Assembly: GCF_026210795.1 (NCBI RefSeq)
Contig: NC_089429.1
Coordinates: 5,084,001-5,148,000, forward strand
DNA length: 64,000 nucleotides
Source: Rhizophagus irregularis
Taxonomy: Eukaryota
Reading direction: 5' to 3'
The position numbers and the translations under genes are program-made. The notes under the pieces are model-generated. The model had not been told where the DNA came from and made no database searches. It saw nothing but the letters and a program-made list of their open reading frames with translations. Shown here one piece after another: positions 37,805-61,871 of the stretch. Positions within the stretch are counted from its first letter, which is position 1; the number at the start of each line of letters is the position of its first letter.

Positions 37805-40800
37805 TTTTTTATTTTTATTTTTATTTTTATGCAACAGAAAGAACCAAACGGTAGTATCAATTACACGGACAACATATAAATGAGTCTAAAGTAATTCTAT
37901 CACTACACGTCAAGCCACCCTAAGCGTGATGACTTCTGACCTTTTAAAAATAAGGAGACCACGAGTCGGATCCAAGATCGTTCTCAGGAGAAACCTTCCA
38001 GGTAGAAAAATATAAGTAGAAAAACATAAAAATAAACTATCTAATATCTAAAACATTTCCTATATAACTATTATTAATAAAAGAAAATAAATCTATTTGA
38101 TTGAACCCCAAACAATCCCGATATACGGTCCAATGTGCTGAATGTAAAAAATTACTTGACGTCCAACGAATATGGGCGTGATTATCATAAAATCCACCTT
38201 CCCTGAAATAAGGAGTCGCAGTGATGCGACGATGCGTATAACTTCGTCGTGGTACATCATTATTTATTGTATCATCTGCTGAGGGCGGAACGGTTTGCTT
38301 CTTATATCGCCGTCTATAAAATCATTTTTTGGTTTTTGTAATGGACAAAGTACGCTCCCAACATTTTATAAGGGAAGAACGTTTAGCCCAAATATGAGTA
38401 TCAATTTTCTGCATTAAAATTGTGAAAAATTTAATAAAAATAGAGAATCGTAATTTTTTGTCTTTGATATAATTATAAAATATTATAGTGAGATCACTCG
38501 GGACCAAATGGTGAATAAGTAAATAACCAGGATGTGTTTGTGATAATGCACCCGGAAAAGTAATGTTAAATAAAGGTGAACTTTCAATAGTCTCTCTCAA
38601 AGCAAAAGATGTACCAGTACTATTTTCAATAATAATATCGTATAAATCATAAGCGGCTTCCATTAATAAAGTAACGACATCGTTCAAGTGATTGATACAT
38701 AAGCCCACATGTGCATTCATATCACAGGCGTTGGAGCATTGAATACAAGGAATGCTACCCAAAGGATATAAGCGAGGGTAGTTGCGTTGTTAAATATCTA
38801 TTGTGGGGTAAATAAAGTTACATTTCTTGATTTTGTTTCCATGATATTTGGAAAGGTTTATGCTACAAGGAGCATCAGAATTATTATAATTCAACCATTC
38901 TCTAGTAAAAGTCCAATCTATCTCTCCATCCAAAATTTGTTTTTTAATAGGGATGAGAGCTTTGTTGTTAATCATCGAATTAAAAATTAATGGTTGTATT
39001 ACGTTATCAGCCCACTTTCTAACGTTACGATCAATAACGTGTAAGCGATTCCAAGAAGCAAAGCCTAAACTTTGGTGGGCAAAAAATTTGTGGTTAATTA
39101 TGATCGGTTCTCTTATATGAGCACCAGCTTTAGCTAAAGTATCTGCTTCATCGTTGTAAAGATTGTTACTATGACCAGGAACCTTAAATAAGGTAACCAA
39201 TAAATTTTTCTGATTAATCAGGAAAAAAATTAAATCCCAAAGTAAAAAATTTAATTGTTTAAGTTTTTGACGTGGACTCACGATGCCTAAATGCATACGT
39301 GTATTAAAAGTGGTGATACAGTTGGCAGAATCTGTATATATATTAACTCTACAATTAAAGGGTGAGACGAGTAACGCCGTGAGTATGCCTATAGTTTCAC
39401 ATTTGGAAGAAGATGGGAAAAAGACCGTGGATCCTTTGAAACTGACTTTCGGCGTTAAAGGTTGTGTTTGAATCCATCCATATCCACTAAGACTGTGGGT
39501 AGTGCCAATATTCTAGACGGAACCATCTGTGTAAAAAGTTAAAATTTCTTCTGAATGTAATAAATCGGCACAATTTTTCAATTCTGACTTAATAGTGGGA
39601 TGACAGATTAAAGCGTGGTCAATGTGATCATTGACATTTTTTGAAAATGAATTATTAGCGGGTGTATCTAAAACATCCGAAGAACGTAAGGTGGAAGATT
39701 TCAAAGGGATTTATCTATTTTAATAAAATTTTCATAAGCTATGTGTCTAAGAGTATGAAAAGGTTTAGTTGCGACAACAAAAGGTTGTCGATTATAAAAT
39801 TCTAATAAAGATTTGTGTTCTACCGAAGATTTTTTAAAAGTATTAAATAATAGAAGTCGTTGTGTTCTTATCGCAATTACACAAGTTGGATGGGCATCAT
39901 GTGGGTAATATGAATGTAATAAACACCCTTTACATGCTACTAAACCCAAAAGTTGTCGTTTAGGTGTCAAATTAATGTCATGGTGTGTTTGTTGAGGTAT
40001 GTAATGTTGTAAATAAGATATTGATGTGGAACGATCAGTGTCTTGTGATAAAGTTTTTCCAAAAATAACTTGTTTTTGTGTGTTGTTCCAATGTATCGTC
40101 CATTGAAATTTAGGTTCAGAAATGGCAAGAATAAGTTGTGGTGATTTGTGTATTCTATTGATGTTGCTCACGACATCGTTCAAAGGGTGGATTAAACGTA
40201 AATTATTACTGAGCACATAATTATTGGCCAAGTTGTTATACCAGGCGGGAATGTTTTCTTTGTAATTGTCATTATTATTTCTTTTGACGTCAGGCCAAGA
40301 GAGTAAATAATTACCATCTGAAGACATGACTTGATCCATATATATAATATTTTTAGCTTTAAGAGATTGTATGTCTGCGGCTGTTAAGTCAGACATATAG
40401 TCTCTTATAGGGGTATTTCCACCTAGAATATTAATGTCAAAAGTAAAATTAAAAGAGAATCCATAATTACTTGATAAACCTAACATTTTAGTGAGATAAG
40501 TAGGTTTTGCCACTAGGTCCGTGTAATCATTGATGTTGTGAGGGATTCTAGGGTACCAGATTTCTGATACCGTGTTGTAAATTTTTTGAATAGCTATATT
40601 TCGGAGAACTGGTGTATTAAATAGCGCTCTTAAAATATTCAATTGTGATTTCATCTGGATGTCAAAAAAATTGGTAATCGATTGGAATAATTGGTTATAG
40701 ATAATATTATCTGCAGTGTTTGATGGGAGGTTCAGGCGTTGTTTAAGGAGTCTTTTTAACAGTCCCATTAAAGTTTGGCATTGTTTAATATTAAGGATCG

Positions 40801-41424
40801 TGTGTTGGAATATATATTCCAGTTTCAGTATAATAATTTTTTTGATGATATATTGTATTGTATGTGGTGATGCATTAATTTTTTATTTTTCATAATATTG
40901 TAGTGTGCCATCACAATTTGTCTACCTTTTTGTATTGTTTGTGTATGACGGTCTGACGTATTGATATATAATCCCAAAATACGTTCACTTTTGTTACGAG
41001 ACATGATGGGTGCATCATATTGTTGATTATTAATCGTTAATGTAATAGTTGATTGCTTAATAGAACGGTCATTAGTCAGGATTCTGTATTTGTCCATATT
41101 AACTTTAATGTTATTGAGATCATAAAATGAATTAGCTATCGACAATTTCTCCTCAATTTGTTGTTGTGAAGAACCAAACCATGTTGTATCATTTAAATAG
41201 CCAACTAAAGAAATATCATAAGTATGGATAATATCATTATTTTTGTGTTGTGAATTCATTTTTTGGATTGAAAAGGTTTGATAATGTAAGTGGGTAAGTT
41301 GATTAATACGATGGAACATCGGGTCGTAATATATGTTCCAAAGAAGAGGTGATACAACTTCGCCTTGGTCAATGCTTTGTAACATAGCATAGGGTTTCAT
41401 GAGACCGTACGGGGTAATGATTGT
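37805..41424 (-). mobile_element. Non-LTR retrotransposon (LINE), 3' portion: RT - RNase H - Cys/His finger, degraded
   Basis: IITPYG...IDQGEVVSPLLW...GYLNDTTW (RT); FYTDGS, YTDS and KVPGHSNNLYNDEAD (RNase H); CIQC...H..LC; (AAAAAT)n tail at about 37805-37830; stops and frameshifts; broken within RT at about 41425. Confidence 0.9.
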
Positions 41425-41526
41425 CATCGGGCTGGTAGTGTGTCTCGCTATGCTCACCCCACCTCGGCCTCACGGCCTCGCAGTACCTACATCCCCCCTC
41501 CATGGGGCGGGAAATCCCTATATATC

Positions 41527-41737
41527 TGAAACAATATGAAACAAGATCTGAAACATAATAATATAAGCAAAAAAGGATAAAATAAGGGAAAAGAGAGGAA
41601 AATAAGAGAGAATCAGAGAGGGCGTTTCGATGTTTCAGATGTTTCAGCAATTTTGGTAAAAGTCAGGCGAGGACAAACCCTCCAGAAAAAGTTTTGATTT
41701 TACCCCCCAGATCCAAACTTCTGAAACATCTGAAACA
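41527..41737. promoter_or_regulatory. Iteron-like TGAAACA cluster, candidate origin or helicase-loading site
   Basis: TGAAACA at 41527, 41537, 41549, 41722, 41731 and inverted at 41631, 41640; perfect 17-bp inverted repeat 41631-41647 / 41721-41737. Confidence 0.45.
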
Positions 41738-41932
41738 GATTCAGGATTCCGTTCATTTTCTTATTGAAGGCAGTGAGATAGCAAACCAGGTAAATTAACA
41801 GGTAAGCCCCTAGAAGGCCTGTAGATCTGTAGGAGAATAATTGGGTAGGAGCACGGATCTTTGAAAAAAATACATTCGGCAATTGAAGATTAGGTAACTA
41901 TAAATTAGTACTCGATTTAATAGAACGAAAAA

Positions 41933-44440
41933 ATGACCACTCAAGCTCAAGTTATCCCTAAGTTCGGTGAACAAAAGAAAGCCTTCAGTATCGATGAGCT
42001 TAAACGGCTTATTGTCACTGCAAAGAGTATGAGTGACCTCGATCAAGCCAAGAGGTATCTTTGCAGTTATTTCATTCCCTGTGCAGATCCTCATGAGGTT
42101 TTCTGGTGGGACCCGGATAGTAAAAGTTTGAAACACGTTATTGACAAAAATATTGGTAAACTTATCCATCCAATCATGAAGGCATTCTACACACAACCTG
42201 AACAAGGACCCTCTCAAAAAACCGAGTTCAACATCTACAAGTGGTTTATGGTCAAGAATACCGATGTATGTAATGCAACCTGTGATCCCCATAAACAGCG
42301 AATCTTCAGATCCTTAACCGGCTAACTCTATCTAAATATCTTTCCGGGATTCCTCCACGTCTTGCGTCCAATATCCACCTTTGAGTCTACAATCCACCTC
42401 GCGGTTAAATTTATCTTTTCTCACATTCGGGATATCTGGTGTTCAGGCAATTGGATCTTACTGAGTATATCATTAAGTGGTTGGCCGGTATATCTGCTGG
42501 AAGGAAGATGTACTCGATCCTTTACCTGAAATCTGGACAGGGTTGGGGTAAAGGTATTATAACAGATTTCATTCAGCGCAGCGTCCTAGGCACTCAACTC
42601 GTTTATAAGACCAGCGATCCTCAGACGATTCTTGGAAGTTTCAATAAGCAATTACAGGGTAAGGTTCTTCTTCTTCTCGAGGAAATGCCCACGGAAAAAA
42701 GCCAGTGAAATAATCTGTATCGCTCTTTAAAGGATAAAGTAACGAGTGACATAATGGAAATCCATGAAAAATACAAGACGCCAACACATTACAAAAACTT
42801 TATGTCCACCAACGTCCTAACCAATGAAAATGCTCTCAGAGTGGAAAATGATGATAGGCGCATAGTATTCTTGGATGTGTCACCATCCCGCAAGGGAGAT
42901 CTCAACTACTTCAAAAAACTCGGTGACGCTATGAAATACCCAGGCGCCAGTGAGGCATTCTATGCTTATTTGAGAGCCATCGCGGATGCTTACCCGAACT
43001 TCAATGGAAATCCGCCACCTATGACAACATCCAAACAGGAACATATCATCTCGACTCTTCCACCGCTATTCAAATTTATAAAGGACACATATCTCGTAGT
43101 GAAAAATTATATGACCGACCTACCTGTTCAAGAATTTTATAGGGTATATACTTCATATTGCGAAACTCATTGCATTTCACCCCTATCAAAGATAAACGCT
43201 TCTAGAATCCTATCAAATGAGTTGGGTATAAATAGCAAAGTAGTACCAAGGGTGGAAAAACACTATGGGTTTACAGTATATCCAGGGAGGACCTCTACAA
43301 GAAGTTCCTCGGCAAAAACTGGATCCACGAAACAGACGAGATAGACATAGAAGGAATCGATATAGAGACTTCTAAAAAACCTGCATCAGACCCCAATGCC
43401 TTGGAAAAGTTCTTGGCAAATATATATAATCCAACTAACAATTCACAAGACGTACAAGAAAAACCCACTGAAGAAAAACCCGAACCTGTTATTAAAGAGC
43501 AACCGATTTCCAAAAGGACTCCTCCACCGCTTCCACCTAAGCCTGATCACTTAAAAGAACGTCTACAAGAGTCAAGGGAAGAAAAACCGTCTACCCCCGA
43601 GCCAGATAACTATGACGTCTTAGACGACTTGTTATCAGACTCGGATTCTACAACCGCAGACCCAGTTCCTGAAAAACCGTCTGCCCCCGAGCCAGATGAC
43701 TACGACATTTTAGACGACTTGTTATCAGACTTGGATTCTACAACTGTGAACCCAGTTCTTGAGTAACAACCCGAGTCACCTACAGAATCTTCCACAAAAT
43801 CTGAATCCCTCGCAGATTCCAAATCTTCTACAGAACCTATAGTAGAATCGGCTTCTGAGCAACTTATCCCAGAACCTGACACAGAACCAGAAGTCGACCA
43901 GGATCCTGAACCAAAGGAAGGCACTCGAGCACACTGGGCTTGGCAAGAAAGACACCGATGGGACCGCAAGCCATGGGTTAAAAATTCAAAGGACCAGGCC
44001 TTCGATGATCTCTACAATACAGGTAAGGAATTATGGGCCAAGTACCAAGACGCGTCAGACGAATATGACTGGGAAATACTCACGTTTGAAGTAGAAGAAT
44101 GTCCCACAACGCGTATTGAGGACAAGTACCAGTACTACCTTAGGGAGGTAGTAGACCGCTTTAAGGACTGGATCAAATATAATGGATACTTATCTAAAAC
44201 ACCTAGCCGTAAAGAACTCGTGGATTTAATAAGAGTATACAAGGATAATCGTGATGCTGAGATTATCCCCACCCCTCTGGTTATGAAACTATGAGGGCAG
44301 ATAAGGGTAAAGCGCGAGAGATCCCTGAGGAACGTCCAAAAACTAATATGGAACGTGAATGGGAAGCCGCCAATAGAATCATCGACGACTGGGATGAAGA
44401 GGATCTTGACCGTGTATGCAGCAAGATTGACTCCTTTTAA
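41933..44440 (+). pseudogene. D5-like/SF3-type helicase (DUF5906-like P-loop NTPase) with Pro/acidic C-terminal extension
   Basis: Walker A SGQGWGKG (about 42532-42555), Walker B LLLLEE, LTNEN and DDRR motifs; upstream YLNIFPGF; broken by stops (42323, 42706, 43764) and frameshifts (about 42440, 43245); 90-bp duplication at 43580-43760. Confidence 0.75.
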
Positions 44441-44523
44441 TAAGATAAGCACTTCTTAGTTATCTTATATTTTTTGTATAAAAAACCTATATTACAACTG
44501 AACACAATTCATAAATACATCAA

Positions 44524-46915
44524 ATGGTTTATTCAGAGATTGTCCGTGCTTTACCTACAAGACCGGATATCAAAGAATTACAGTATTCAGGCGCAAGATT
44601 TTCTAGAGGATCAATAGTAAGACTTGGACAGCGACTCCAATCCCGGTATTCGACACATAAATTCCAGATCCTGCTTCCCTATGAAAACTGGAAACCCAGT
44701 GGATGGACATCAGGAAATGAACCGGTAAGTCTTTTTTCACTGTTAGACCATTATGATGAAGCATAACTACCAGATGACGCAGACCCCGATTATTTCGAAC
44801 GATTTATAATTTATATAAGAGACGCTCTACCGGCCACAGGAGGATGCGATGGGGAGCTAAATAATTGCCTGTATGAATGCCTAAAAAATATCTACGGCAC
44901 ATTCTCTAAAATGCCAAAATCAATCGAAAAGCCTGAGTTTATCAAAAAGGCATTAGGTCTCAATCGTGATGCTCCCATCCCAGTTTCATGCATGGATAAG
45001 GTTGAACAACTCGCAGGAAGTCTCACACTTAATATCGTGGGGGATATTACCTGAATCTCTAAGAGTAAGTTCGATAGACGTGCGACTCTCATCCTGTCTG
45101 AGGGTCACTACTCCCTCGCGTTAAATCCTAGAAGACTCCACCCCAGTAAATTAGATAAAAAGCGTAATCTGCCCATTGTGTATCATGAAGATGGAGTAAA
45201 CAATGTAGTCACAATATATAACGGCAAAATGGTTAAGTCTTGTACAATTGGGCAGTTTCAAAAAACTAAGAATTCAAGAAGTTCCTTTATCTCTGTTGAG
45301 AAGAACCATAAGACTGGAGTATATGAAACTCTTGAAGAAGCATATCAGAGAATCCACGAGGAGTAGAATTCCTTTCTACAGGAGACAAAGAAGTTCGGTT
45401 TAGGAATCGACTTATCATACCATAACTGGTCTTACAAAAGAACGGCTCTCTGGTTATTCGAACGATTAAGTGTAGGGATTCCAGCTAATGATCCTCTTGA
45501 CACAGGTCGAAAAGTGAAAAATCAGGCACCAATCGGTCACCAATCAGGTAGCTGATTGGTGACTGATTGGTGCCTGATTGGTGCCTGATTGGCATTTTCG
45601 CCAAATACCGTCACCAATCAGGCAGTTTGCTAACTTTTGATCCAGTGATCAGAAAAAGATGAAATATAGCTCATTGGAATCGTCTCAACAAGACGAATCT
45701 AATGGTAGTAAAATCGCATCTTTAGGATTAATAGTTAATAAAAAATTAAATAAAATATAAATGATACATTTTCATTTTTATATTTTACTTAATTTCTCAT
45801 CAAGTATTAATCCTAGAGATGCGATTTTACTACCATTAGATTTGTCTTGTTGAGACGATTCCAATGAGCTATATTTCATCCTTTTCTGATCACTGGATCA
45901 AAAGTTAGCAAACTGCCTGATTGGGCGACGTATTTGGCGAAAATGCCATCAGCACCAATCGGTCACCAATCAGGTACCTGATTGGTGACCGATTGGTGAC
46001 TGATTGATGCCTGATTTTTCACTTTTCGACCTGTGTGACCCGATAGAAGCAGAGTGGTTAAGTGATGCAATGATGGGAGGATTAATCTGAGCAGATAACG
46101 AGTGGAAGGGCTATGGAAGACAGTACGACGCAACAAGTTTATACCCGAGTATCCAACAATTAAACGTGAACTTTCCAATCAGACGGGGTAAATTCCAGAC
46201 ACTTAATGACTTTGTTGACCACAGGAGTTATGCCTTGTATGGATTATTTCGTGCTAAAGTAAGTGGGAATAATATTCTCTTCCGACAGAATAAAAGGGGA
46301 ATCTATACATTCATAAACTTACAACGAGCAAAAAAACTTGGTTTCAATATACAGTTAATACAGGATGGGAAGCCAAATGCATTGATATATGATAGAGAAG
46401 TGAGAATCCCTGGAACTGTAATATTCAGTGAGTATGTACACTTCCTCTTCAAAATTAAAAACCAGGGTGGCATAGCTGGCCGCGTGGCAAAGCGAGTCCT
46501 CAACATATTATGGGGAGCATTATGCCAGAGGAAGCGTAATTACAAGACACTCACCACAGATCAAACAGACCCATTTACATTTCCAGAGGGCCATACACTC
46601 AATTCTATCATGCCAGTAGGATCTGACCAGTAGCGATTCCAGTTTACAAACCCAGGTAATTCCTTCAAAGGTGAATATTCTAGGATCGCCCCATTCTTAT
46701 TAGCACGTGGTCGCAAAATCACATCTGAGGCAATTCAACCATACAAGGATAAAGTACAACGTATCCATACAGACGGATTTATTTTAAAAGAGCAGCCAGA
46801 TAGCCCCGCGCTTTTCACTTGTTCAGAGAATGCAGATACGACTCTAAAGACTTTCAAGTTTAAAACCGCGGGATACTGCCATGTAAAAAATGCGAACAAG
46901 GTTATCTGGACATGA
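44524..46915 (+). pseudogene. Family B DNA polymerase, protein-primed type, about 617 aa after removing the MITE
   Basis: AMMGG; motif A YDATSLYPS (about 46124); motif B KRVLNILWGAL; LARGR (Tx2GR-like); motif C RIHTDG. The frame is continuous once the 538-nt insertion plus TSD is removed; several in-frame stops. Confidence 0.8.
45501..46035. mobile_element. Fold-back MITE, copy 1 (CACAGG termini), inserted in polB
   Basis: Near-complete palindrome with arms of about 240 bp; CACCAATC internal repeats; TGA on both sides; excision restores ...PLDPIEAEW. Confidence 0.92.
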
Positions 46916-47060
46916 TTGCTAAGAACTGGTAGGTTTATTTTTTACCGACATACCGTGATGGCATAATTGAATAAACCTATAGAACATGTAATCTTACGAG
47001 ATACCCAAATGCAAAACACCGACGGATTAGGTAGACAAGACGACGAAAGTTTCCACACGT

Positions 47061-47602
47061 TGTAATAACTGAAAATATAATAAATAAATGACGCAGTAAA
47101 TCCTGTGGCGCAGTAGGTCACATGATATGGTTACACAAGAAGAAATAGTTGGGAATACAAAAGTCACGTGACAAGTCACATGGCGCAGTAAGTGACAGAT
47201 AAATATTTAGCCGATGGAATTTTGATAGAGAAAGAGTAGTAGATAGTAGAAATGATTTTCTTAAAATGTATAAATACAAGTGGATTTCGATAGGGAATTC
47301 GGCAGTTAAAAATTTTTGGAAAATAAAAAAAAAATTTTAATTTGCCCTTAAAAAAAAATAAACTAACACATTCTTTTAACCTTTTTCTTATGATGAAAAA
47401 GAAGTGTCATTTTTAATGACCTGATAATGATTTATAATTTTGGGGAAACTATCACAATTTAAAATTTTGGTAAGAAAATAATGCTTATGTACTTTTTGTA
47501 ACTAATTTTTATTTTAAACCAAGCATATAATATATTCGAACTCAACACGTCGGTGGCAACATATGATATTTTATTTTAATATCCTATGGGCGGCATGTCA
47601 CA
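47061..47602 (+). repeat. Probable 5' LTR of the Gypsy element
   Basis: TGTAATA...TGTCACA ends followed by TTT-TGGTGCATG (PBS-like, TGG at 47606); partner LTR lies outside the window. Confidence 0.55.
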
Positions 47603-47680
47603 TTTTGGTGCATGCTCACGAGAAAATAAAAGATTGTTGTCTTCATACAAAATCTAAATAAGAAATAAAAGAAAAGTATA

Positions 47681-47820
47681 TGAGAAATCATCAAAGAAAT
47701 ATAAGAAAGGAAGGATGATATAAGAAATCATCAAAGAAATATAAGAAAGGAAGGATGATATGAGAAATCATCAAAGAAATATAAGAAAGGAAGGATGATA
47801 TGTGAAATCATCAAAGAAAT
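47681..47820. repeat. 40-bp tandem repeat (about 3.5 copies) in the Gypsy leader
   Basis: gaaatcatcaaagaaatataagaaaggaaggatgatat repeated. Confidence 0.85.
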
Positions 47821-48241
47821 GATAAGATAATGAAGACTTATCTGAAATATGAGAAAAATGTTACTATATATGAAAAAGGATATAGTAAAAGTAATATTAT
47901 GAAAAAGGAATATTACGGAATATATGAAAAATGAAATATACGATATATTAAAAAAGTATATATCGAAAGGATAAATGAAATATTCAAGATAATAATGAAA
48001 AGATTTAAAAATTAAATGAAAATAAAAATTTATAAGGAGAATGAATTTTGTGAATAATAAGAAGTTAATAAATGATTGAAAAATTCAAAAGTATTATAAG
48101 AAAAGAAAAGTTATTAGTGACAAACCCGTAAACTACTATACTTCTATAAAGAAAATAAAGGCAAGCCCGGTATAGGTTACTAAATGAAAAAAGAAAATTA
48201 AATGATATTGTAAATATGAGAAATATCAAAATGTTGTTATA

Positions 48242-48733
48242 CACAGGTCGAAAAGTGAAAAATCAGGCATCAATCAGTCACCAATCGGTCACCAATCAGG
48301 TACCTGATTGGTGACTGATTGGTGACTGATTGGCATTTTCGCCAAATACCGTCGCCAATCAGGCAGTTTGCTAACTTTTGATCCAGTGATCAGAAAAGAA
48401 TGAAATATAGCTCATTGGAATCGTCTCAGCAAGACGAATCTAATGGTAGTAAAATCGCATTTCTAGGATTAATAGTTAATAAAAAATTAAATAAAATATA
48501 AATGATACATTTTTATTTTTATATTTTACTTAATTTCTCATCAAGTATTAATCCTAGAAATGAGATTTTACTACCATTAGATTCGTCATGTTGAGACGAT
48601 TCCAATGAGCTATATTTCATTCTTTTCTGATCACTGGATCAAAAGTTAGCAAACTGCCTGATTGGTGACGGTATTTGGCGAAAATGCCAATCAGGCACCG
48701 ATTGGTGCCTGATTTTTCACTTTTCGACCTGTG
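48242..48733. mobile_element. Fold-back MITE, copy 2
   Basis: Same cacaggtcgaaaagtgaaaaatcagg TIR and palindromic body as copy 1; TA on both sides. Confidence 0.92.
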
Positions 48734-49494
48734 TATTTGATATATGAAAAATAATTTTATTACAATAAAAGAATAATATGAAAGATTGTAAAAGATAATA
48801 ATGAATTATATGAAATAAAATGATGTAATAATGGCGCAGTAAAAGAAATATATAGCTGCCCCTTGGGCAGGGGCGATTGATTAATAAAAATATAAATGAA
48901 CAAGAAAATAATAGTAAAGAAATAGTTGTGTCACCAGGGGCGTTTGTCAACAGAAATTTTAGTACATTGATTGCTTAAAAATCCGTGGCTATCCAATTAT
49001 AATAAGAAAATATTAACGAATTATAAAATGAAATGCGAGAAATAAAATAATATGAAATAGATTTGAAATAAATATTTTGGAAGTTAATATAAGAAAAAGA
49101 TTAAAAGTTATTAAAAAGTTTAATGTTGTGTATAGAACTGGGAGAACCCCAGTATAAATAAGAGCACACTGGGAGGACCCAGTATAAATAAGCCTTTGTT
49201 GGTGATCATATTAGTCTGACACTGGGTGGCCCCAGTTATAAATAATCCCTAGCCTTGATCACAGTTTATTTGCGCAAGATATAAAAAGTTTATAAATAAA
49301 ATCGCGATTATAGATTATAGATTATATTATAGAATGTATAGAGAAATTATAGAATCAAAGCTGGAACTTTGAAAATATTAAAATTTAAACTGTATTTTAA
49401 AAGAAGTAAAAGATAAAATAGTAATTTAAATGATGATAAAATTTTAAAAAAAATATAAATAAAAGTGAAATTATGAAATGTTTAAATAAAAAAA

Positions 49495-50325
49495 ATGTCT
49501 GATATATACGATGAGTTAGAAGAGATTAAGAATAGACATGAAATAGAGAAACATAATGAATTAAGAAAAGAATATCAAGTGGACCCTTCATGTCTAAAAT
49601 GTTATAGTACTGATGAAATAGAGATAGGAGATTGGTTTAAAAGATTTTGGAAGATTTTTCAAAAAGTAATATTAGAAGCGATGAGTTATAACAAAAATAC
49701 ATATGTAAAATTAATGGAATACATAGTACTAACAAGAAAGGATGGGGAAGAAAGTTATCCATCTAGTAAAAAGAAAAGAAATAGAGAATTTGAGAAAATA
49801 AGAAAAGAAGGGGAAAAACTTCTAGATATAGTTGTAAGGTCAATTAGATATAGGAATAAATCAGATTACAGAAAAATGGGAATTATATCAGTGATAAAAG
49901 TGATCTGCGAACATTACATATTGAGTGAAGATAACGAGTTTATATTAGACGATCGAACAGAAGTGAATCTATTAGGAAATAGAGAATTATTAACATATAG
50001 ATATATTATAGAAGATGACGAATTAGATATAAGATTTGCAAAATTTGAAGAATGGTTAGACGAAATAGAATCAATAACCATTAAAAACAAAGGATACGGT
50101 ACTATGAGATATTTCAAAGAAATACTACATTTAGAAGAAAATATAGTAGAAGAAGAAAATAGAGAGAAAGTCAAGAAGTTTCAGAAAAGTATAACATATC
50201 AATGGTGGGATATAAATGAATATCCAAGACCATGGGTAAATGACGATATAACAGATAAGATAATAAAGAAAATTAGTATCAATAATAATAGATTCAGGAG
50301 CATCAGTCAGTTTAATATCAGATAA
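49495..50325 (+). CDS. Gag-like ORF of the Gypsy element, probably internally deleted
   Basis: 276-aa charged ORF directly upstream of the protease, in the A-rich retroelement strand. Confidence 0.55.
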   Translation: MSDIYDELEEIKNRHEIEKHNELRKEYQVDPSCLKCYSTDEIEIGDWFKRFWKIFQKVILEAMSYNKNTYVKLMEYIVLTRKDGEESYPSSKKKRNREFEKIRKEGEKLLDIVVRSIRYRNKSDYRKMGIISVIKVICEHYILSEDNEFILDDRTEVNLLGNRELLTYRYIIEDDELDIRFAKFEEWLDEIESITIKNKGYGTMRYFKEILHLEENIVEEENREKVKKFQKSITYQWWDINEYPRPWVNDDITDKIIKKISINNNRFRSISQFNIR

Positions 50326-50560
50326 ATTAAGAAAAGAATTAAATATTCCAATAATAGAAAAGAGTGATATTAGATTTATAATGGCTAATGGAACAAGAGT
50401 TGCATCAAAAGGAAAAATAGAAATAACAATAGAAATAAATGAAAATACAGAAATGAAAATAATTATGGACGTAATTGAATCAGTAGAAAAAGAATTAATA
50501 TTAGGAAATGATGTGTTAAGAGAAAAGAAAGGAATAATAGATTATAATGAAAAGATATTA
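50282..50560 (+). pseudogene. Retroviral-type aspartic protease, split by the Plavaka element
   Basis: IIIDSGASVSLIS...MANG...LILGND...IIDY; reads EKIL|ILRENGK across the empty site. Confidence 0.85.
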
Positions 50561-51922
50561 CATCAGGAAATTATATAGTGCGAAAAGTTGCGCAAGTTTA
50601 CACATCATAATATTTCGTAAGCTTCCAGACTCGCCGCAAGTTTGCGTAAGCGTAATATTTTGTAACTTTTTAAAATATTTCGAAATATTACGATATGCAA
50701 AGCTTCATAATTTTACGATTTGTAATATTCCGTAATTTTGCAGTTCGCAATATTTCGTAATTTTACATAATATTTCATAAGTTTTCAGATCCGCCGCAAG
50801 TTTGCGTAAGCGTAATATTTTGTAACTTTTTAAAATATTTCGAAATATTACTGTATGCAAGGCTTCATAATTTTACGATTCGTAATATTCCGTAATTTTA
50901 CTGCGTAATACTTCGCAACTTTTTAAAATATTTCAAAATTCTATGATGCGTAATATTCCATAATTTGACGATTCGTAATATTCTGTGATTTTACACAACT
51001 TAATATTTCGTAATATTTCAAAATATTTCGATAAATAATACTTCATTTTCTGTACTATAAGTTTATATAATGTATGTTTTATTAGATATAATCATAAAAA
51101 ATTACAAGTATTTATTAATATATACAGAATACATAAAAGTAAAAAAAAGAAAGAGTAGAGTAACAATATTATTAGACGTAAAAAGAAGAGAAACAGCTAT
51201 AGTAACGTTAGTATTAGATATAAAGATAAAAGAAATATTGTTATTATTGTTAGTATTAAGGTAAAAAGAGTTAAAGAAACAGTAAAAGGAGTAAAAGAAA
51301 CATGGATATTATCGTTAGTATTAAAGTACAAGTAAAAAGAAATAAAGGAAACGTAGATAGTATTGTTAGTATTACGACATAAAGTAACAAAGAGGTAAAA
51401 AAAAACGCGTTAATATTAAAATAATTAGTATTAATAAATAAATATTTCTATACCTGCAAAGTAATTGAACAAAAGAATAAAGAAATAAAGAGAAAGGAAA
51501 AAATAAACATGTTGTTAGTATTGTTAGTATCGTTAGTATTAAAGTACAAGTAAAAAGGAATAAAGGAAACATGGATATTATTGTTAGTATTACGATACAA
51601 AATAACAAAGAGGTAAAAAAAAATGAAAATAATTAGTATTAATAAACAAATATTTCTATACCTGCAAAGCAATAAATTATGAAATATATGTAAATATATT
51701 GTATATAATTAAAGAAATAATAGAAAGAAGAGACAAAAAAATTAAAAATATTGAACAAAAGAATAAAGAAATAAGAAACAAAAAAAATAAGACAAAAACG
51801 CGTGCATGATTAAATGATTAAATGATTAAATCACATGCAAGGATCAGCCTAATTTTGATTGGCCAGAAAATACGATATCGTAAAATTACGGAAATCCGCA
51901 TTTTAAAAAATCACAGAAATTG

Positions 51923-52135
51923 TATATGCACAATTACTAAATATTATCCCCTCGTGATAAATTAAAAATTATCAACACAAATTCAACACAAATTTAACAA
52001 ATTTAACGAAATTTGGCCAAAATTAACAAATTTTTACCAGAATTATCAACACAAATTGAACACAAATTGAACACAAATTTCAGCCATGATTTATTTATGT
52101 CACACCCGTGTTGTTAAGAATTAATAACCATTTTA
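51923..52135. repeat. Left arm of a long internal inverted repeat (partner 59195-59413)
   Basis: About 210 bp with aacacaaatt sub-repeats and atgtcacacccgtgttgttaa, reverse-complemented at 59195-59413. Confidence 0.85.
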
Positions 52136-52752
52136 TTTATTAAAACTATATTAATTATGGTAAAAAAAAATGCTATTACGTGTGATATATATAAAAAATA
52201 ATATTTATTTCCTATGCAACCCATAATTCTCTAATAAACTATTTACATACCGACCTTCCTCCTCCATGTTATAAGAGTCAATAGAAAGTATATCATCATC
52301 AGCTATGCCATCATTGGCCGCACCATCGTTGGCCGCACCATCGTTGGCCGCATCATCATTAGCCGCACCATCGTTAGGCCTACCATCGTTAGTCACACCA
52401 TCATCAGCCGCACCTGCTCTATCGTCAGCTGCTCTATCACCACCATCATCTACATCATTACCATCATGAGAATCATCGTCCGAATGTGTAAATTTATCCC
52501 TATTTTCCAACTTTTGCTAAAAATCAATAAATAAATAAATAAACTGTAATTCAAATAATTCACATTTTGCAAATTGTAAATTAAAAACTTACTAAGTTGT
52601 TGATTATCTTCGACTTCATTATACTTTCGCTCATTTGAATGTTTTGATTATTAGGATTTAAGTACGTTTCACATATGCTAATCGCATACGCTATTTGTGT
52701 TTTTGAGGGATTTTTATTTTCTTTTCGCAACTTATCAATTATCAGCGACATA

Positions 52753-54104
52753 CAGTCCCCTCTCGATATAACGAACCCTAGGTTCCAGCTGATCAGGGTT
52801 TCGTTATAAGCAACTTCGTTAATACTATAACGAATTCTTCGGTATAGGAATATTGGTTATACAGATCATGTGACTTGTTGATCTGATTACCGATAATTTA
52901 ACATTTTTTTTAATCTTTTTTTTATAGGGGTGCTTTCTAAACTTCAAAATAGATGCCTAGAATGAGAAGTAAGTGAGAACTGGAGGTTTTTTATATTAAT
53001 TTCATTTAAGAACATTTACTAATGTTCTTTTTTATTTTTTTTATTGTAGGGAACTTCCTGGACTTCAAAATGGACGCCTGAGACGAGAAGTAAGTGGGGA
53101 ACTCAATTTTTTTTATTTAAGAACATTTACTAATGTTCTTTTTTTATTTTTTTATTATAGGGAACTTCCTGGACTTCGAAATGAACGCTTGAGACAAGAA
53201 GTAAGTGGGACAACTCAATTTTTTTTATTAATTTCGTTTAAGAACATTTACTAATGTTCTTTTTTATTTTTTTTATTGTAGGGACTTCGAAATGGATGCT
53301 TGAGACAAGAAGTAAGTGGGACAACTCAATTTTTTCTTTTAATTTCGTTTAAGAACATTTACTAATGTTCTTTTTTATTTTTTTTATTGTAGGGACTTCG
53401 AAATGGACGCTTGAGACAAGAAGTAAGTGGGACAACTCAATTTTTTCTTTTAATTTCATTTAAGAACATTTACTAATGTTCTTTTTTTATTTTTTTATTA
53501 TAGGGAATGCTTCCTGAAGTGTTCTATATAAAAATGTTTATTATAATTCCTTTTTTTTGTAGGAATGCTGTTTAACAATAACTGACTATATAATAAATAA
53601 ATTATTAATGATATATTAATTTAACTAGGAATGTCCTTACCCCTGTGATAAATATAAATTAATAACAATTCACATCAAATCCTATTACAACCGAATTAAT
53701 GTAAATTAATGTAATTCTGCCTAAATATTAAATAAAATAGCCAGAATTATTAATCTTGATACGATCCTAATACAATCCTGATCTATAATTTAAATATAAA
53801 ACACAGGGGTGATATTTAATGTCATAATGCATCAATATTTATTAATAATTACATTTAATTATAAACTATAGAAATTCTTCGTTATAACTGAAAAAAAATT
53901 CGTTATAAAAAAAATCTGTTATATCGAAAGGCATTTTTATATAAGAAATTCACACACTTTACTTTGTACTACGTTATACAGTAAATAAATAGTAAACTTC
54001 ATTATATCAAGGTTTTTTTCATATTTAAAATCGGTACCACACTGTATGATCCGTTATATCGTGTTATTCGCTATATCGAGGTTCGCTGTAGAGAGGGGTG
54101 ACTG
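52753..54104. mobile_element. Non-autonomous pogo/Tc1-mariner-type element (1352 bp) carrying micro-exon array 3
   Basis: Imperfect TIRs cagtcccctctcgatataacgaacc versus cagtcacccctctctacagcgaacc; TA on both sides; removal restores the host frame. Confidence 0.85.
52921..53560 (+). other. Micro-exon/hairpin-branchpoint intron array 3, young tandem units of about 110 bp
   Basis: Five introns GTAAGTG...AAGAACATT-TACT-AATGTTCTT...TAG; exons of 41, 40, 40, 30 and 30 nt. Confidence 0.8.
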
Positions 54105-54999
54105 TATATGTCGTAGGTTGCCCATCTTTAACCTTTTTAAATAGGTTGTTGTAACATCTTTTCACCTCCGCCTTATTCTTCCATTTCTGAATCTTTGACG
54201 GACTAGCCTGAGTGTTAGTAGACGGTAATTTATGCCCAGTCACTTCGAAAACAGAATACATAACGTCTTTAACTCTAGACGTGAACGTCCCTCATATGCT
54301 TCTATGTTGTTGTACTAACTATTAAAAAAAAATGTTAGTATGAAATTTAATAAAATTCATAATTGCTTTAACTTACAGTCGGGGCAATTTTTTTTTCGAA
54401 AAAAATAATCCATTGATTTTTTTTGAACTGGCGCATAAATTCCGGATTTTCGTCTTTTAAATATTTTTCAGTAGCGAGTTTGTACTCGTCTTGCGAAGGA
54501 TAAACAAAATTTTCAAATAAAATTTTTGACACCTTCTTAACGAGCTTCTAATCAAACGAGGTTAGCATTTCAGGTTTACATTAAATAATATTCATCTTTA
54601 TTACCTTTACATACTCCGGATCTATTGTATTATTATTATTTTTGTTATTATCGTTGAGCTTTTTTTCTATGCTCGAGAGACGGGTTTCAAGATTTTTTTG
54701 TCCGGTGATAAGAACTTCAAGCTTAGAAATTATCTGCGAATTGGTTCTTAATAGTTTTTCTATTGTTTTTTTATTAACTTTAACAATAAAATATAATTTA
54801 ACTATATATTATATAATTTCTTTTATAAAGAATATGATACATATTATGTCATATATACCATCAACACTATCATCGGATATTCTCACTCGCTTCTCAGCTT
54901 CGCTACCCTCAGTACTACATTTTGAAAATCTTTCATTATCGTCAATTCTTCGTTTCTCGCCACGCTTTGTAGCCATTATGATAATAAATTTGAAACGAA

Positions 55000-55098
55000 A
55001 ATATGAGAAAAAGGAGGAAATATATGAGAAAAAGGAGGAAATATATGAGAAAAAAGAGGAAATATATGAGAAAAAAGAGGAAATATATGAGAAAAAGG
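55000..55098. repeat. 21-bp tandem repeat (about 4.5 copies)
   Basis: atatatgagaaaaa(g/a)gaggaa. Confidence 0.85.
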
Positions 55099-56119
55099 TG
55101 AACTAGAAAATTCGAAAAGGATGAGGAAAAAGGGGGAAATACATGAATCAGAAATTCAGAAAAAGAAGGCAAGCTGTCATAAGGTAATTTCCGCCATTCT
55201 ATACTAAAAAAGAAAAAAAACTTGCGAAATATTGCGAAAAATGAATGAACTAATGCGAAATATTACGAAAAATGAATGTACTAATGCAAAAATTTTGCAT
55301 CGTGATATTACGAAAAAATATTGTAACACTTTCATAAGAGAACTTTAAAAAAAAACTCTCGTAAAAGCACATAATACAATCGAAATATTAATCAAATCCA
55401 ATTTATAAAAAAATAACATGTTACACATGTTGGGGCTTTTATGCATGGAAAAAAAAAGTTGCAGCCAGTGAACTCATTTGGCTGATCAGATTGATAGTGA
55501 TCTTGAGCGCTTATAACCTGATTATCGCATAAATTTGTGGCTGATCATCTGTCCATTATTGTAAAAGTGATTTGCCGTGTTAAGCCAATAAATTTGCGGC
55601 TGATTATCAGATGATTAGCCGATTGAATAAGCCATCCGAATTCTTACAGCCCGTTACAGCAAATTCAAAATATGCGAAACACTCAGCACTTTTGCTGTCA
55701 GATTCACTTGGCAGGTTGCCGGCAAATTGAAATAGTAAATAAAATAATAAACAATATTTATATGGTACATCATAGACTTGTTACATTTATTTTTAGATTT
55801 GCCAACCCACGAACTTGGCAAGTTCCCGACAGCAAAATTGCTGAGTGTTTCGCATATTTTAAATTTTGCTATAATGCGTAAAATTGCGAATGATTCCGCG
55901 ATATTAGCCACCAGATTCTTACAGCCAGTTCCATTCATTAATGCGTAAATTTGCGTAGTCGTGTCTATTCAAATAACTTAATCAATTGTAATCCATTCAA
56001 TTAATTCATTAAATTTTTACAATGAATTTGCAATATAATTTTATTAGCACATATAATCTTATATAAATTAAATAGTGAATTGATACTTTTCATCAAATTT
56101 GACGCGTTAATTTAGTAAC

Positions 56120-59099
56120 ATGAGTTTCAAATGCCCCCTTTGTATGCGAATATTCAGTCAACGCTTTGCATATACTCAACACGCCCAAAAATGCTTAAAA
56201 AATGTAGAAGTAGAAGTAGAAGATGATGATGATAATAATGATAGTGAAAAATATAGCAGTGAAATGGATACAAGAAGTAATCTAAGTAGTGAATATGAAA
56301 ATGATAAAGTTGAGGTAATTATGTTATTCCAGATTATTCTTTTTAAAGAAAAAGCTCAAATTATACTAACTCATTTTGGTTTATAATTTTAGGTGGATGA
56401 TGATAATAATGTACAAAATATGTCATTTGACAGTATTGGAAGTGCAATATCAGAGATGAGCCTTGAAGATAGTAACTTTGAAAATATATTAGATTCATCT
56501 GAAGAGCCTGAAATTTTTGAAGAACCCAAAAATCTCAATACCAAAACTTGCACAGAATTTCCTAATGATGCTTATAAAGATCTAATGTTATTAGTAACGA
56601 AATATAAAATAAACAATAAAGGTGGTAATGAAATAATACGTTTTTTTAATAAACATTCAAATCTTACAGAATCACCATTACCAAAAAATATTGAACAGGG
56701 ACTAGCATTTATGAATAATATGAAGTTTTCTAATTTAGAATTTAGTAAAGTTCTTATAACAAAACATAAGGATAAAGATTATTTTCTTTATTATCAAAAC
56801 TTAATACAGTGCATCAAAAATATCTTAACTGTTCCTGACATAACACAAAATTTTGCGCTATCTTACGAAAACTATGAGGTAAATAGTAAATATTAGTTAA
56901 TTCAATAATTTAAATAATATTTATTTTAATTTATTTATATTATTTTATAGTATAATAGAGAAAGTATTTACAGTGAACAAAACACTGGAAAATGGTGGAA
57001 AACTACGCAAGAATCCTTACCTACTGGTTCCAAATTATTATCAATTATTTTATATTCAGATGCAACAACTACAGATACATTAGGAAAAAGTCAATTGCAT
57101 CCAATATATATTTCATTAGGCAATATCCCAATATGGCGTCATAATAAACAGGATGCAAAGCAACTTTTGGGATATTTACCAATTTTAGAAGCTGCAAATA
57201 AAGATCTGGTTCGTGATACCTTTCATAAATCTTTACGTCATTTACTAGAACCAATTATTTTATTAAAAGATGGTATAGACCTTTTTATAAATAATGAAAA
57301 TACCTGGTTTTATCCTAGAGTTTCAACTATTATTGCAGATTGGCCAGAAGCCGCAAGTTTTTGTTTAGTTTATAAATCCTCCAATTCAAGCCTTCCATGT
57401 CACTCCTGTTTAATTAAAAGGGACAATCTTGCAAATATAAACTTATCGGTTAATGATGTAATACTAAGAACTCATGATGAAATGCATAAATATTTTGAAA
57501 ATGATACACAAAAATCTGTTTGCATAGAATCTGTACCTAATTTTTTTGGGATTTGCCGTAAGTATGCAAAAGTAGAAATAATTATAATAACATATATATA
57601 TATTAATTATAAATATTTATATTATCAAGGAATATAAATATCTACTTGGCTACTGTTCCTGACAGAATGCATCATTTAGATTTGGGTTTATTTCGTTATC
57701 AAATTATCTTCACGTGCGATATCTTAAAATTGCAACATGTTAATGGTAATAAATTAGTTGAAGAAGTAGATTGCCGTCTAGCAGCAATTCCACGTTTTCC
57801 CGCCATTAAAATTTTTTCCAATGGACTGCAGTCAATTGCAAGATTAACTGCTAATGAATATCGAAGTTTGATGAAAGTCATGATATTTGTTATTGATAAT
57901 TTATATGATGAAAATAATAACGAAGTAGATAATTTTGTAAATAATGATGATCTTGTGAAATTGTACGAATATTGGAATGAAATGTATATTTTAAGTAGAT
58001 ATGAAGAATTTAGTGAAAGTGACTTGGAGAAATTTAATATATGTATTAAAATTTTAGTAAAATCGAAAATTTAAATTAAATAAATTAAATTAACATTTAA
58101 ATTTTAGGATGCAATACATAGATGGGCGCGGATGTTTGTCAAGGCTTTTAAATTTGTTTCTCCTTCCAATTTGAAGTTGCCTAAATTGCATTCATGGGTT
58201 TATCACATTATTGACTCAATACGATCTTATGGCGCAATAAATGGCTATACCACAGAAACTTACGAAAGTCTCCACAAATATTTCGTTAAAATACCCTACC
58301 GAATTAGCAATAAAAAAGATGTCGAACCTCAGCTTTTACAAACTGTAAGTATTTGGAAATTTATTTATTGTATATATTTATTATATAACTTAAGATGGAA
58401 ATTAAATTAATAGATAAAACGTCAAGCAATATCTATTAGAATGTCTCAACATTCAGTGAATCCAGCAAAAACACCTCGCACTTGTAAATTTTCTGCAAGA
58501 CTCTTTGATTTCTCTTTACAAGATGCAAATACATTTTTTAATGAAAAAAAAGATTCCGTAGACAATAAAATGCAGACCGGTTTTGCTAGATTTATAAGTT
58601 GTCTGGATTCATATCTAGATTTACTTGATGGGTTCACAATTATTGGTGAAACCCGAATAAACATATACGGATCGGTAACACTGGAAAATGGTGCCATAAT
58701 GCGTGCCACAAACAGGTATCATAATAAAGTATGGTTTAGCGACATAGCTATTTCAATGGATTCTGAAGAATCAAATGATTATATATCAGACAAAGGACTT
58801 TGTTATGGACAGGTATTTTTCCAATTTATGTAATAATTTATTATAAAGTATTAATAAATATTTATTATTTATAGGCCTTATTGTTAGCAGAAGTATTAAC
58901 AGACCCACCGCTAAATCTCGCATTAATTCAATGGTACGATTTTAAATCTAAAAGGAACCCATATTTATATGGATGTCCTCACTTAAAATTGATAGAATTA
59001 TATAACTTTGTAGCTATAGAGTCTATACATGGTGTCGTTCACATAGTACCCCGATTTGATAAACAAAATGAATATTTCGTAAATAAATATATTTTTTAG
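56120..59099 (+). pseudogene. Plavaka-type (CACTA-related) transposase with N-terminal zinc finger, about 7 exons
   Basis: CPLC...H...C finger; LYSDATT...HPIYISLGNIP; IIADWPEAA; VPDRMHHLDLGLF; PKLHSW...ESLHK. 1-nt frameshift near 57541 and a mutated donor near 58040. Confidence 0.85.
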
Positions 59100-59194
59100 T
59101 CACTTGATATAGGAGTTTTGATTTATTTTAATAAAATTATATCCTTAAAGAATTTATGGTCACGTTTCCCATATCATAAATAAAATGCAGATTT

Positions 59195-59413
59195 ATTTAT
59201 TTAATTATTAACAACACGGGTGTGACATAAATAAATCGTGACTGAAATTTGTGTTCAATTTGTGTTCAATTTGTGTTGATAATTCTGGTAAAAAATTATT
59301 AATTTTGGCCAAATTTCGTTAAATTTGTTAAATTTGTGTTGAGTTTGTGTTGAATTTGTGTTGCGTAATTTTTTATTTATCACAAGGGGATGATATTTAG
59401 TAATTGCATGTAC
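59195..59413. repeat. Right arm of the internal inverted repeat
   Basis: Reverse complement of 51923-52135. Confidence 0.85.
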
Positions 59414-59630
59414 GACGTACAAGATTTTTTTTTATGATTTTTTTAAGAAATGTACGCAAAATATTTAATCAGAATATAATTGTTTTATTTTTAAATATGA
59501 TATATTGATGATTTTTTTTTTAAAAAAAAAAATTGATTTTTTTAAAATTCAATAGAATGTGCTAATAATAAATTAGTTTATTTTTAAATATAATATATTG
59601 ATATTTATATTTAAATAACCAAAACATGTA

Positions 59631-60919: not shown

Positions 60920-61217
60920 TACATGATTTTTAATTATTTTTAATTGAAATCAAACTAAGATCTTTTTTTTTAAAAAAAAATTAAAATAAATTAAGTGATT
61001 TATATTTATATTTAGAATCATGATATTTATATTTAGATAATCCATATCCGCATGAGATTTAATTAATATGTTTAATGATGAAAAGTCTAATAAATTAAAT
61101 TTTAATTGAAACGAGAAATAAAATCAAACCAAAGAGGTATTGTTCAAATTTTATTTAAAGTGACATTTTACGACTTTCTTTCAAATTTTTACTCATCCCA
61201 AAATCAAATTACTAATA

Positions 61218-61871
61218 ATGCCTCGCCACACACGTCGTCGTTCCCACTATAACGTCCATTGGAACTAAGCTATGATGGACGAACTTGTTGATATACGCCG
61301 AGACAGAAACTGCGCCTACCACAATATTAATGGTAGAAGCCGCCAAGATTTTTGGGACTCTGTTGCCAATAGGTTCATATGACTAATATCTATAATTTCT
61401 TTAAGAAAGAATTTAAATTCAAATTAACCAATCCATTTAATTGAATCAGAATAAATAGAATATTTCGAACGAGGGTTTCTGGGCAACAGTGCAGCCAAAA
61501 GTGGAGGAACCTCGTCAGGGATTACCATGTAAGTAAATAAATAACATTACATTCATATAAATTAAATGTATTTACCGAATATTCAAACTGATTTTGATAT
61601 TTAGAACTATGTCCTTTATCGTAATGGTAACCTTGGGCAGCGGCTGTGGACGCGTACCGGCGTAAGATATTATCGCGAATTTAGAACGAGATTTTGGGAG
61701 AGGCCGGGTAATTATACTATAATAAAATTTATAATTAATATTTACGTTCATGTTTTAAATTTGATAAATTTGATCAATTTTAGTCACGCGTGATGATCGT
61801 AGGGCAAGGAGAAACTTACCTACGTATCGTAAGAAGATAATTATTTTTATTTTTTTATTATTTATTAAGTG
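61218..61871 (+). pseudogene. Myb/SANT-like (trihelix-type) DNA-binding protein gene, spliced, one premature stop
   Basis: Not in the ORF track. Spliced translation MPRHTRRRSHYNVHWN*AMMDELVDIRR...FWDSVANR|INRIFRTRVSGQQCSQKWRNLVRDYH|NYV...WTRTG..YY.EF...FWERP; 3' end uncertain. Confidence 0.7.

What the first reader, a model, noticed from the sequence alone, without database searches (positions are those of the whole stretch)
41425..47060. Minimal two-gene helicase + protein-primed-type PolB element integrated in a fungal chromosome
Seen: an intronless, higher-GC block with two co-oriented decayed genes. One is a D5/SF3-like NTPase (GQGWGKG, LLLLEE, DDRR). The other is a PolB of about 617 aa that only appears after excising a MITE and reading through stops (MMGG, YDATSLYP, K..LN.LWG, LARGR, IHTDG). 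Known: pPolB plus SF3 helicase is the replication module of Polintons, Polinton-like viruses and related elements, which usually also encode an integrase and/or capsid proteins. Inference: no such genes are visible here, so this may be a stripped, capsid-less self-synthesizing element family not captured by standard TE classes. Caveat: its right end is pushed out of the window by the Gypsy, so more genes may exist.
Basis: partly seen in the sequence, partly recalled or inferred. Interest (0 to 1): 0.85.

Follow-up and report, generated by a model that had tools for sequence, protein, structure and literature searches.

The report
Fungal Polinton carrying retrotransposon capsid genes
This is the broken left part of what is likely a known self-copying DNA transposon (Polinton) of mycorrhizal fungi, not a two-gene element; its longer relatives carry a retrotransposon-type capsid and protease where no usual virus shell gene is seen, so they may pack their DNA in a borrowed shell.

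Summary
In detail: a decayed SF3 helicase gene and a decayed 617-aa protein-primed PolB, split by a 535-bp MITE. The 'two-gene element' reading fails. A contig 93.5% identical runs on past 47060 into a third gene that the Gypsy LTR cuts here. Longer relatives continue: small ORFs, A32 packaging ATPase, coiled-coil ORF, Gag-like capsid, retropepsin, RVE-chromodomain integrase. In R. irregularis records PolB, Gag and integrase have neighbouring accession numbers. This fits the Polinton/Maverick of Glomus intraradices (11-12 kb), catalogued as lacking jelly-roll capsid genes. What I add: the polymerase is mavirus-type (terminal protein, vOTU protease, palm, exonuclease remnant); the fungal clade's nearest relatives in my tree include elements with a double jelly-roll capsid; in the fungal clade no such capsid is seen, a Gag-Pro module (probable -1 frameshift) sits beside the ATPase, and the ATPase is under purifying selection. 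One figure legend (Starrett 2021) already lists Gag/retropepsin labels. That Gag packages the DNA is inferred, untested. The window copy itself is dead.

The parts
41433..41932 (+). Non-coding leader; probable left end of the element at about 41433-41437 (TGGTAGTGTGTCTC), set into a LINE-like RT gene
   Evidence: GC step and break of the LINE frame; exact end and TIR not shown, right end is outside the window; L034/L035 share a left boundary about 890 bp before their helicase
41527..41737 (.). Seven TGAAACA repeats in both orientations, iteron-like (function inferred)
   Evidence: 7 of the 18 copies in the window lie here; 0 of 1000 base shuffles reach 7; the L035 leader has another motif, CTTGCC x9, also 0 of 1000
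41933..44440 (+). Decayed D5/SF3-like helicase with winged helix and long acidic tail, no primase domain detected; 3 stops, 3 frameshifts
44524..46915 (+). Decayed mavirus-type pPolB: terminal-protein domain, vOTU protease (C115, H195), exonuclease remnant, palm; 5 stops, one MITE
45501..46035 (.). 535-bp MITE with CACAG...CTGTG ends and TGA duplication; further copies at 48242-48733 and from 63926
47009..47060 (+). First 17 codons of the element's third ORF (about 165 aa in L016), cut by the Gypsy
   Evidence: 14 of 16 residues identical to L016; L016 93.5% identical over 46036-47060 and runs on
47061..64000 (+). Gypsy retrotransposon with nested insertions that displaces the rest of the element (LTR starts TGTAATAAC; RT at 63050-63976); not part of the element
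38037..41432 (-). 3' part of a LINE-like RT/RNase H element, the insertion site; not part of the element
   Evidence: RVT_1 and RNase_H hits

Best explanation
The block is the dead left 5 kb of a longer element, likely the Glomus/Rhizophagus Polinton, which would copy itself by protein-primed synthesis, would integrate with an RVE integrase, and has likely swapped the jelly-roll capsid of its viral ancestors for a retrotransposon Gag-protease module. Shown: gene order in relatives (helicase, pPolB, small ORFs, A32 ATPase, coiled coil, Gag, retropepsin, RVE-chromo, DUF5679), the polymerase's domain make-up in a model, the capsid fold of Gag in a model, intact catalytic motifs, and selection on the ATPase. 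Inferred steps: (1) an excised linear copy is primed at its ends by the terminal-protein domain (invariant Tyr77 is my candidate linking residue), which the vOTU cuts off; (2) the separate SF3 helicase loads at the leader repeats and unwinds for the exonuclease-less polymerase, as proposed for mavirus; (3) Gag and, by -1 frameshift, Gag-Pro build a particle that holds the DNA with integrase, with the retained A32 ATPase helping to load it; (4) RVE inserts the copy. The window copy landed in a LINE, decayed, and was hit by a MITE and a Gypsy.
For: Third ORF continues in L016. A32 follows PolB in 6 of the 8 fungal-clade loci that run 1.9 kb or more past PolB; Gag in 2 of 2 that run past A32 (L008, L035; PolB only 52% identical, same order); retropepsin and RVE in 1 of 1. 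R. irregularis accession order on one 181-kb contig: PolB CAB4442465, Gag ...472, RVE ...480; PolB-Gag within 4-7 numbers in 3 of 4 same-contig pairs. pPolB model pLDDT 88.6; best viral match mavirus pPolB, TM 0.73, E 2e-43; phi29 Z 21.5; OTU domains at 108-202. Gag: Retrotrans_gag in 19 of 34 homologues, atlas 0.93, every listed Foldseek row and the top 26 VIA rows are retroviral, retrotransposon or Gag-derived capsids. Run of 9 or more A at the Gag stop with an open -1 frame in L008 and L035; 17 of 17 full-length Gags picked end in a Lys run. A32 dN/dS 0.18-0.42 in three pairs. Fungal clade SH 100; L053 outside it has a jelly-roll capsid. Published: 11.0-12.0 kb, no MCP, penton or protease.
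Against: None of the downstream genes is in the window; linkage for this copy rests on relatives. No contig holds a whole element with both ends. Gag is seen next to PolB on only two contigs, and in L008 Gag has a frameshift, in L035 A32 has one. Gag Foldseek E-values are weak (best 0.013), only the C-terminal capsid domain superposes well, pTM 0.48. The protease motif is DSA or DTC, not D[TS]G. Gag dN/dS of 0.27-0.49 comes from one near-saturated pair. One of four PolB-Gag pairs is 41 numbers apart, one RVE is 71 or more from its pair, two RVE sets were not comparable. One published 11,954-bp copy is listed without ATPase. No particle is known, and I know (from recall) no case of an A32 ATPase working with a Gag shell. 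No sequence comparison with the Repbase Polinton-1_GI was possible.
Confidence: 0.6

Rival explanations
1. Same Polinton, but purely a transposon: Gag-Pro is a kept passenger with a non-packaging job (scaffold for the integration complex, shield from RNAi, copy-number control, or protein processing), and A32 does something other than packaging.
For: No particle known; weak match of the capsid N-terminal domain with a long insertion; odd protease motif; three relatives carry a stand-alone tandem capsid C-terminal-domain ORF, which suggests regulatory reuse; a published copy lacks the ATPase.
Against: Both capsid domains, a protease and a frameshift signal are kept together in divergent copies, the layout that sets the Gag to Gag-Pro ratio in particle-forming elements (established knowledge); A32 Walker motifs intact and conserved.
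Confidence: 0.27
2. An ordinary polinton-like virus whose jelly-roll capsid gene lies in the unseen right end, or is supplied in trans by rarer complete copies; A32 serves that capsid.
For: A32 is kept; relatives outside the clade have a jelly-roll capsid; the last stretch of the element was not seen (L008 ends 130 bp after DUF5679).
Against: L035 (left boundary to Gag) and L008 (PolB to DUF5679) together cover about 13 kb with no candidate ORF; published copies are 11-12 kb with no MCP or penton found.
Confidence: 0.08
3. One reading: a minimal two-gene helicase-PolB replicon of a new class.
For: Only two genes are readable in the window; helicase and PolB are adjacent with no integrase between them in 8 of 8 fungal-clade loci that show the helicase.
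Against: A third ORF is cut at 47060; relatives carry ATPase, Gag-Pro and integrase.
Confidence: 0.03

Closest known systems
Polinton-1_GI / P_Gi1.1, P_Gi1.2 (Maverick of Glomus intraradices = Rhizophagus irregularis)
   Same: Same host by nearest proteins; pPolB, RVE and ATPase; no MCP, penton or cysteine protease; 11,019-11,954 bp (PMC4028283 supplement rows; PMC7805220 passage); recently expanded in Glomerales (PMC11952901, PMC8647823 passages).
   Different: The passages I saw treat it as capsid-less and do not mention Gag-Pro, the mavirus-type polymerase, two helicase types or leader repeats. Not compared by sequence.
Mavirus-like virophages (Cafeteriavirus-dependent mavirus)
   Same: 617-aa pPolB with TP-vOTU-palm, exonuclease remnant, first Asp of motif C missing, separate SF3 helicase (PMC11161782 passages).
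   Different: Here no jelly-roll capsid, penton or maturation protease is seen; RVE lies far downstream, not between helicase and PolB; Gag-Pro present; 21% identity only.
Unnamed polinton-like elements in metagenomes (L053, L064, L072)
   Same: Closest PolB group in my tree (26-33% identity), same helicase, RVE 33-40% identical to that of L008, A32 ATPase.
   Different: RVE sits just upstream of PolB in 16 loci; L053 encodes a jelly-roll capsid; no Gag hit in any.
Element(s) in Fig. 5 of Starrett et al. 2021 ('MELD viruses and related elements')
   Same: [quoted passage not shown] Likely this family.
   Different: I could not see the figure; the text I read neither names the element nor discusses Gag; the supplement is held cut and gave no hit.
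Ty3/Gypsy and retroviral Gag-Pro (PEG10, Arc, HERV-K, MLV capsids)
   Same: Capsid C-terminal fold (Z 9.5, rmsd 2.7 over 82 residues), retropepsin, probable -1 frameshift.
   Different: No reverse transcriptase or RNase H and no zinc knuckle were found next to it; the integrase faces the other way and resembles the PLV integrases.

Membership tests
Polinton/Maverick | Protein-primed family B polymerase | tested here: met
Polinton/Maverick | RVE integrase on the same element | tested here: met
   Met for relatives (L008; R. irregularis accession order); not visible for the window copy
Polinton/Maverick | A32 packaging ATPase | tested here: met
   6 of 8 long fungal-clade loci; not in the window
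Polinton/Maverick | Terminal inverted repeats and 5-6 bp target duplication | not testable with these tools
   Right end outside the window, no host genome held; no partner of the left end inside the window
Polinton/Maverick | Sequence identity to Repbase Polinton-1_GI | not testable with these tools
   Consensus not held; original paper not held
Polintoviricetes / PLV (virus form) | Double jelly-roll MCP and penton | tested here: inconclusive
   No candidate in about 13 kb of composite coverage and none in the published table, but the right end was not seen and the small ORFs were not folded
Mavirus-like virophage | TP-vOTU-palm pPolB with exonuclease remnant plus separate SF3 helicase | tested here: met
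   TP assigned by full-length match to mavirus, not searched alone
Mavirus-like virophage | Virophage MCP, penton, cysteine protease; dependence on a giant virus | tested here: inconclusive
   Structural genes not seen; dependence not testable
LTR retrotransposon (for the Gag-Pro module) | Gag capsid fold and retropepsin | tested here: met
LTR retrotransposon (for the Gag-Pro module) | Reverse transcriptase/RNase H after the protease | tested here: not met
   In L008 the protease stop is followed within 30 bp by the end of the opposite-strand integrase; one contig only; R. irregularis Gag-Pro gene models end after the protease
Transpoviron / Tlr1-like (pPolB-S1H) | SF1 helicase fused to the polymerase | tested here: not met
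   The helicase is a separate upstream SF3 gene; PolB ends after the palm

The most novel reading that the evidence does not exclude
Mycorrhizal fungi carry a chimeric DNA virus: a mavirus-type, protein-primed linear dsDNA genome that lost its jelly-roll shell, took Gag and protease from an LTR retrotransposon, and packs its DNA into retrovirus-like particles with the old A32 pump. It would be a retroviral-type capsid serving a genome that never passes through RNA.
Probability: 0.3. Interest if true: 0.9.

Novelty: new variant of a known kind. Interest (0 to 1): 0.55.

Why it matters
The Glomus Polinton is a standing example of a Polinton with no capsid gene found (PMC7805220). If Gag-Pro is its replacement shell, that gap is explained and a capsid swap between two unrelated virus lineages becomes testable in a cultured fungus with intact copies. 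It would also give a route by which a recently expanded element family moves between nuclei or fungi. If Gag does not package DNA, this is a useful re-annotation of a known repeat. The window copy alone is an ordinary relic.

Tried and rejected
No host genome is held and no sequencing-run result was obtained, so the far side of the Gypsy, TIRs, target duplication, copy number and expression stay open. Sequence searches of solved structures found nothing for PolB or helicase. Viral contigs gave one distant PolB locus and nothing for the integrase, ATPase, Gag or a left-end pattern; prokaryote genomes gave two distant contigs in assembled bins, not used. The first tree run did not finish; the tree used has 46 rows, FastTree, midpoint root, no outgroup and no mavirus sequence, so direction of change is not tested. 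Wide fold search listed no good match for residues 1-100 of PolB (best Z 5.5); that domain was not folded alone. Earlier scan notes gave nothing on this element; one search listed six pPolB-SF1 findings from other genomes, not used. Rejected: linear plasmid origin (nearest fold is mavirus, integrase and ATPase linked); one fused helicase-PolB protein (fusions are spliced gene models; contigs show two ORFs); Gag as a one-off nested insertion (same place in two divergent elements, no RT). No complex prediction was run.
Full report
Observation. The block 41433-47060 has 41% GC against 28% for the rest of the window. It holds a helicase gene (41933-44440; DUF5906 E 3.8e-16; three stops and three frameshifts) and a PolB gene (44524-46915) that reads as one frame with five stops once a 535-bp MITE is removed. 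The MITE left a TGA duplication. Of 115 longer proteins found with the C-terminal half, 61 by my count are named Rhizophagus irregularis, the best 92-93% identical, among them an intact 617-aa protein; 10 are gene models that fuse helicase and PolB. The host is therefore R. irregularis or a close relative (inference). Against two relatives, the window lineage has 38 changes to L016's 17 over 877 columns, 28 of them C>T or G>A: a dead, decaying copy.

It is not a two-gene element. L016 matches 46036-47060 at 93.5% and runs on into an ORF of about 165 aa, whose first 17 codons are in the window before the Gypsy LTR starts at 47061. A metagenome scan returned 79 loci, the best of 149 matches. I mapped 23 query proteins on all 82 loci held. 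In the clade that holds the fungal proteins, helicase and PolB are adjacent in 8 of 8 loci that show the helicase. An A32 ATPase follows in 6 of 8 loci that run 1.9 kb or more past PolB (L007 and L008 are 96% identical, so five independent); the two misses hold only a PolB fragment followed by what look like other transposons (by eye). L008 continues: coiled coil, Gag-like ORF, aspartic protease (E 4e-6), RVE with chromodomain (E 7e-6, 6e-17), DUF5679. L035, with a PolB 52% identical to that of L008, has the same order up to the contig end after Gag. R. irregularis has many Gag-protease and RVE-chromo homologues. For pairs I chose because they share a contig, PolB and Gag accessions lie 7, 4, 5 and 41 apart; on one 181-kb contig the order is PolB, Gag, RVE; other RVE distances were 4 (to Gag), 12 (to PolB), 71 or more, and two sets could not be compared. 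Accession distance is indirect and counts isoforms.

The polymerase. An AlphaFold model of the intact homologue (51 sequences, pLDDT 88.6) matches mavirus pPolB over its whole length (TM 0.73, E 2e-43, next full-length rows about 0.4), phi29 polymerase (Z 21.5, rmsd 5.0, 344 aligned) and many OTU proteases at residues 108-202 (Z up to 6.8). C115 is kept in 50 of 51 sequences (one gap), H195 in 51, motif A Asp in 50, motif B Lys in 51, motif C reads HTD in nearly all, Tyr77 is invariant. Krupovic et al. 2024 (PMC11161782; passages and section 6) describe this TP-vOTU-palm layout with an exonuclease remnant for mavirus, a missing first Asp in motif C that is compatible with activity, a linking Tyr or Ser in a loop before the last strand of the TP domain, and a separate SF3 helicase. 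Tyr77 lies in such a stretch; its role is my inference.

The capsid question. In a 46-row FastTree tree the fungal clade has SH support 100 and a long stem; on the other side lie elements with RVE directly upstream of PolB (16 such loci), the order I recall for mavirus. One of them, L053, encodes a protein whose atlas neighbours are jelly-roll capsids (0.97-0.98; TM about 0.8). The root is a midpoint, so loss in the fungal clade is inferred from the wider family, not tested. In the fungal clade no capsid candidate appears in about 13 kb of composite cover. The Gag-like protein hits Retrotrans_gag in 19 of 34 homologues at E up to 0.1, scores 0.93 in the atlas, and its model (pLDDT 74.6, pTM 0.48) returns only retroviral and Gag-derived capsids in the Foldseek list, though with best E 0.013, and in the top 26 VIA rows (best Z 9.5, rmsd 2.7, 82 aligned). 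Gag ends in a run of at least nine A with the -1 frame open into the protease in L008, and open to the contig end in L035; 17 of the 17 full-length homologues I picked from 34 end in a lysine run. A32 keeps Walker A and B and shows dN/dS 0.18, 0.23 and 0.42; Gag 0.27-0.49 from one near-saturated pair. Against a working particle: the protease motif is DSA or DTC, L008's Gag and L035's A32 each have a frameshift, and no particle is known.

How it likely works. An excised linear copy is primed at each end by the TP domain, released by the vOTU; the SF3 helicase loads at leader repeats (7 TGAAACA here, 9 CTTGCC in L035, each 0 of 1000 base shuffles) and unwinds for a polymerase without proofreading; Gag and Gag-Pro form a particle, perhaps loaded by A32; RVE (D-D-E intact in L008, read) integrates it. 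I put about 0.9 on the identity as a Glomus Polinton, 0.6 on the whole account with Gag-Pro as a working replacement module, 0.3 on true DNA packaging with A32.

What is known. Bellas and Sommaruga 2021 (PMC7805220, passages) state that the G. intraradices Polinton has no detectable MCP. Krupovic et al. 2014 (PMC4028283, passages and supplement rows) list 11,954 and 11,019 bp copies with no MCP, penton or protease, ATPase in one. A 2026 preprint (10.64898/2026.06.19.733378, passages) finds Glomus and Rhizophagus A32 genes related to those of Polintons. Mavericks are expanded in Glomerales (PMC11952901, PMC8647823, passages). PMC11296320, PMC4409740 and PMC6431247 (passages) add nothing on Gag. 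Starrett et al. 2021 (PMC8502044, passages and section 3.4; preprint passages) have a figure legend with Gag, retropepsin, TBP and S3H labels, likely for this family; the figure, the cut part of its supplement and the preprint supplements were not visible and may bear on novelty. Kapitonov and Jurka 2006 and Pritham 2007 were not read. Searches found no text that discusses a Gag-for-jelly-roll swap; subscription papers are not covered.

Verdict. Real feature, known family, wrong first reading. The under-described point is the Gag-Pro module beside a conserved packaging ATPase in a mavirus-type replicon. Interest 0.55.

Noticed in passing
P0004/P0017 against P0083/P0050 (R. irregularis gene models); L013: Two helicase heads only 28% identical are joined to a 76% identical acidic tail and near-identical PolB: helicase swap by recombination within the family.
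   Followed up: partly
L009:2400-2888, L048:519-1007, L045:825-1301: A stand-alone ORF of about 165 aa right after PolB made of two Gag capsid C-terminal-domain repeats (41% identical to Gag); could act as a dominant-negative copy-number control, as recalled for Ty1.
   Followed up: partly
L029:1647-2408 (-), L044:4107-4430 (-): TATA-binding-protein-like gene after PolB in one subgroup.
   Followed up: partly
L008:4232-4753, L003:2436-2849, L012:3056-3589: F-box-like ORFs among the variable small genes; with the vOTU they suggest handling of host ubiquitin.
   Followed up: no
L008:7215, L035:9283: The Gag start codon overlaps the end of the coiled-coil ORF in the -1 frame in both elements; coupled translation is possible.
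   Followed up: no
window 45501-46035, 48242-48733, 63926-64000: MITE family with long imperfect inverted arms and CACAG ends, CACTA-like by recall; three copies in the window.
   Followed up: partly
window 47061-64000: Gypsy with nested Plavaka (56111-58833) and an open 354-aa Tc1-like transposase (59735-60799), plus 50-, 111- and 160-bp tandem arrays.
   Followed up: no
window 25180-26929 and 34435-36535: Duplicated MLKL-like N-terminal domain tyrosine-kinase-like genes about 9.25 kb apart.
   Followed up: no
The mavirus-type pPolB family is large: 1,177 representatives at 50% identity score E below 1e-30.
   Followed up: no
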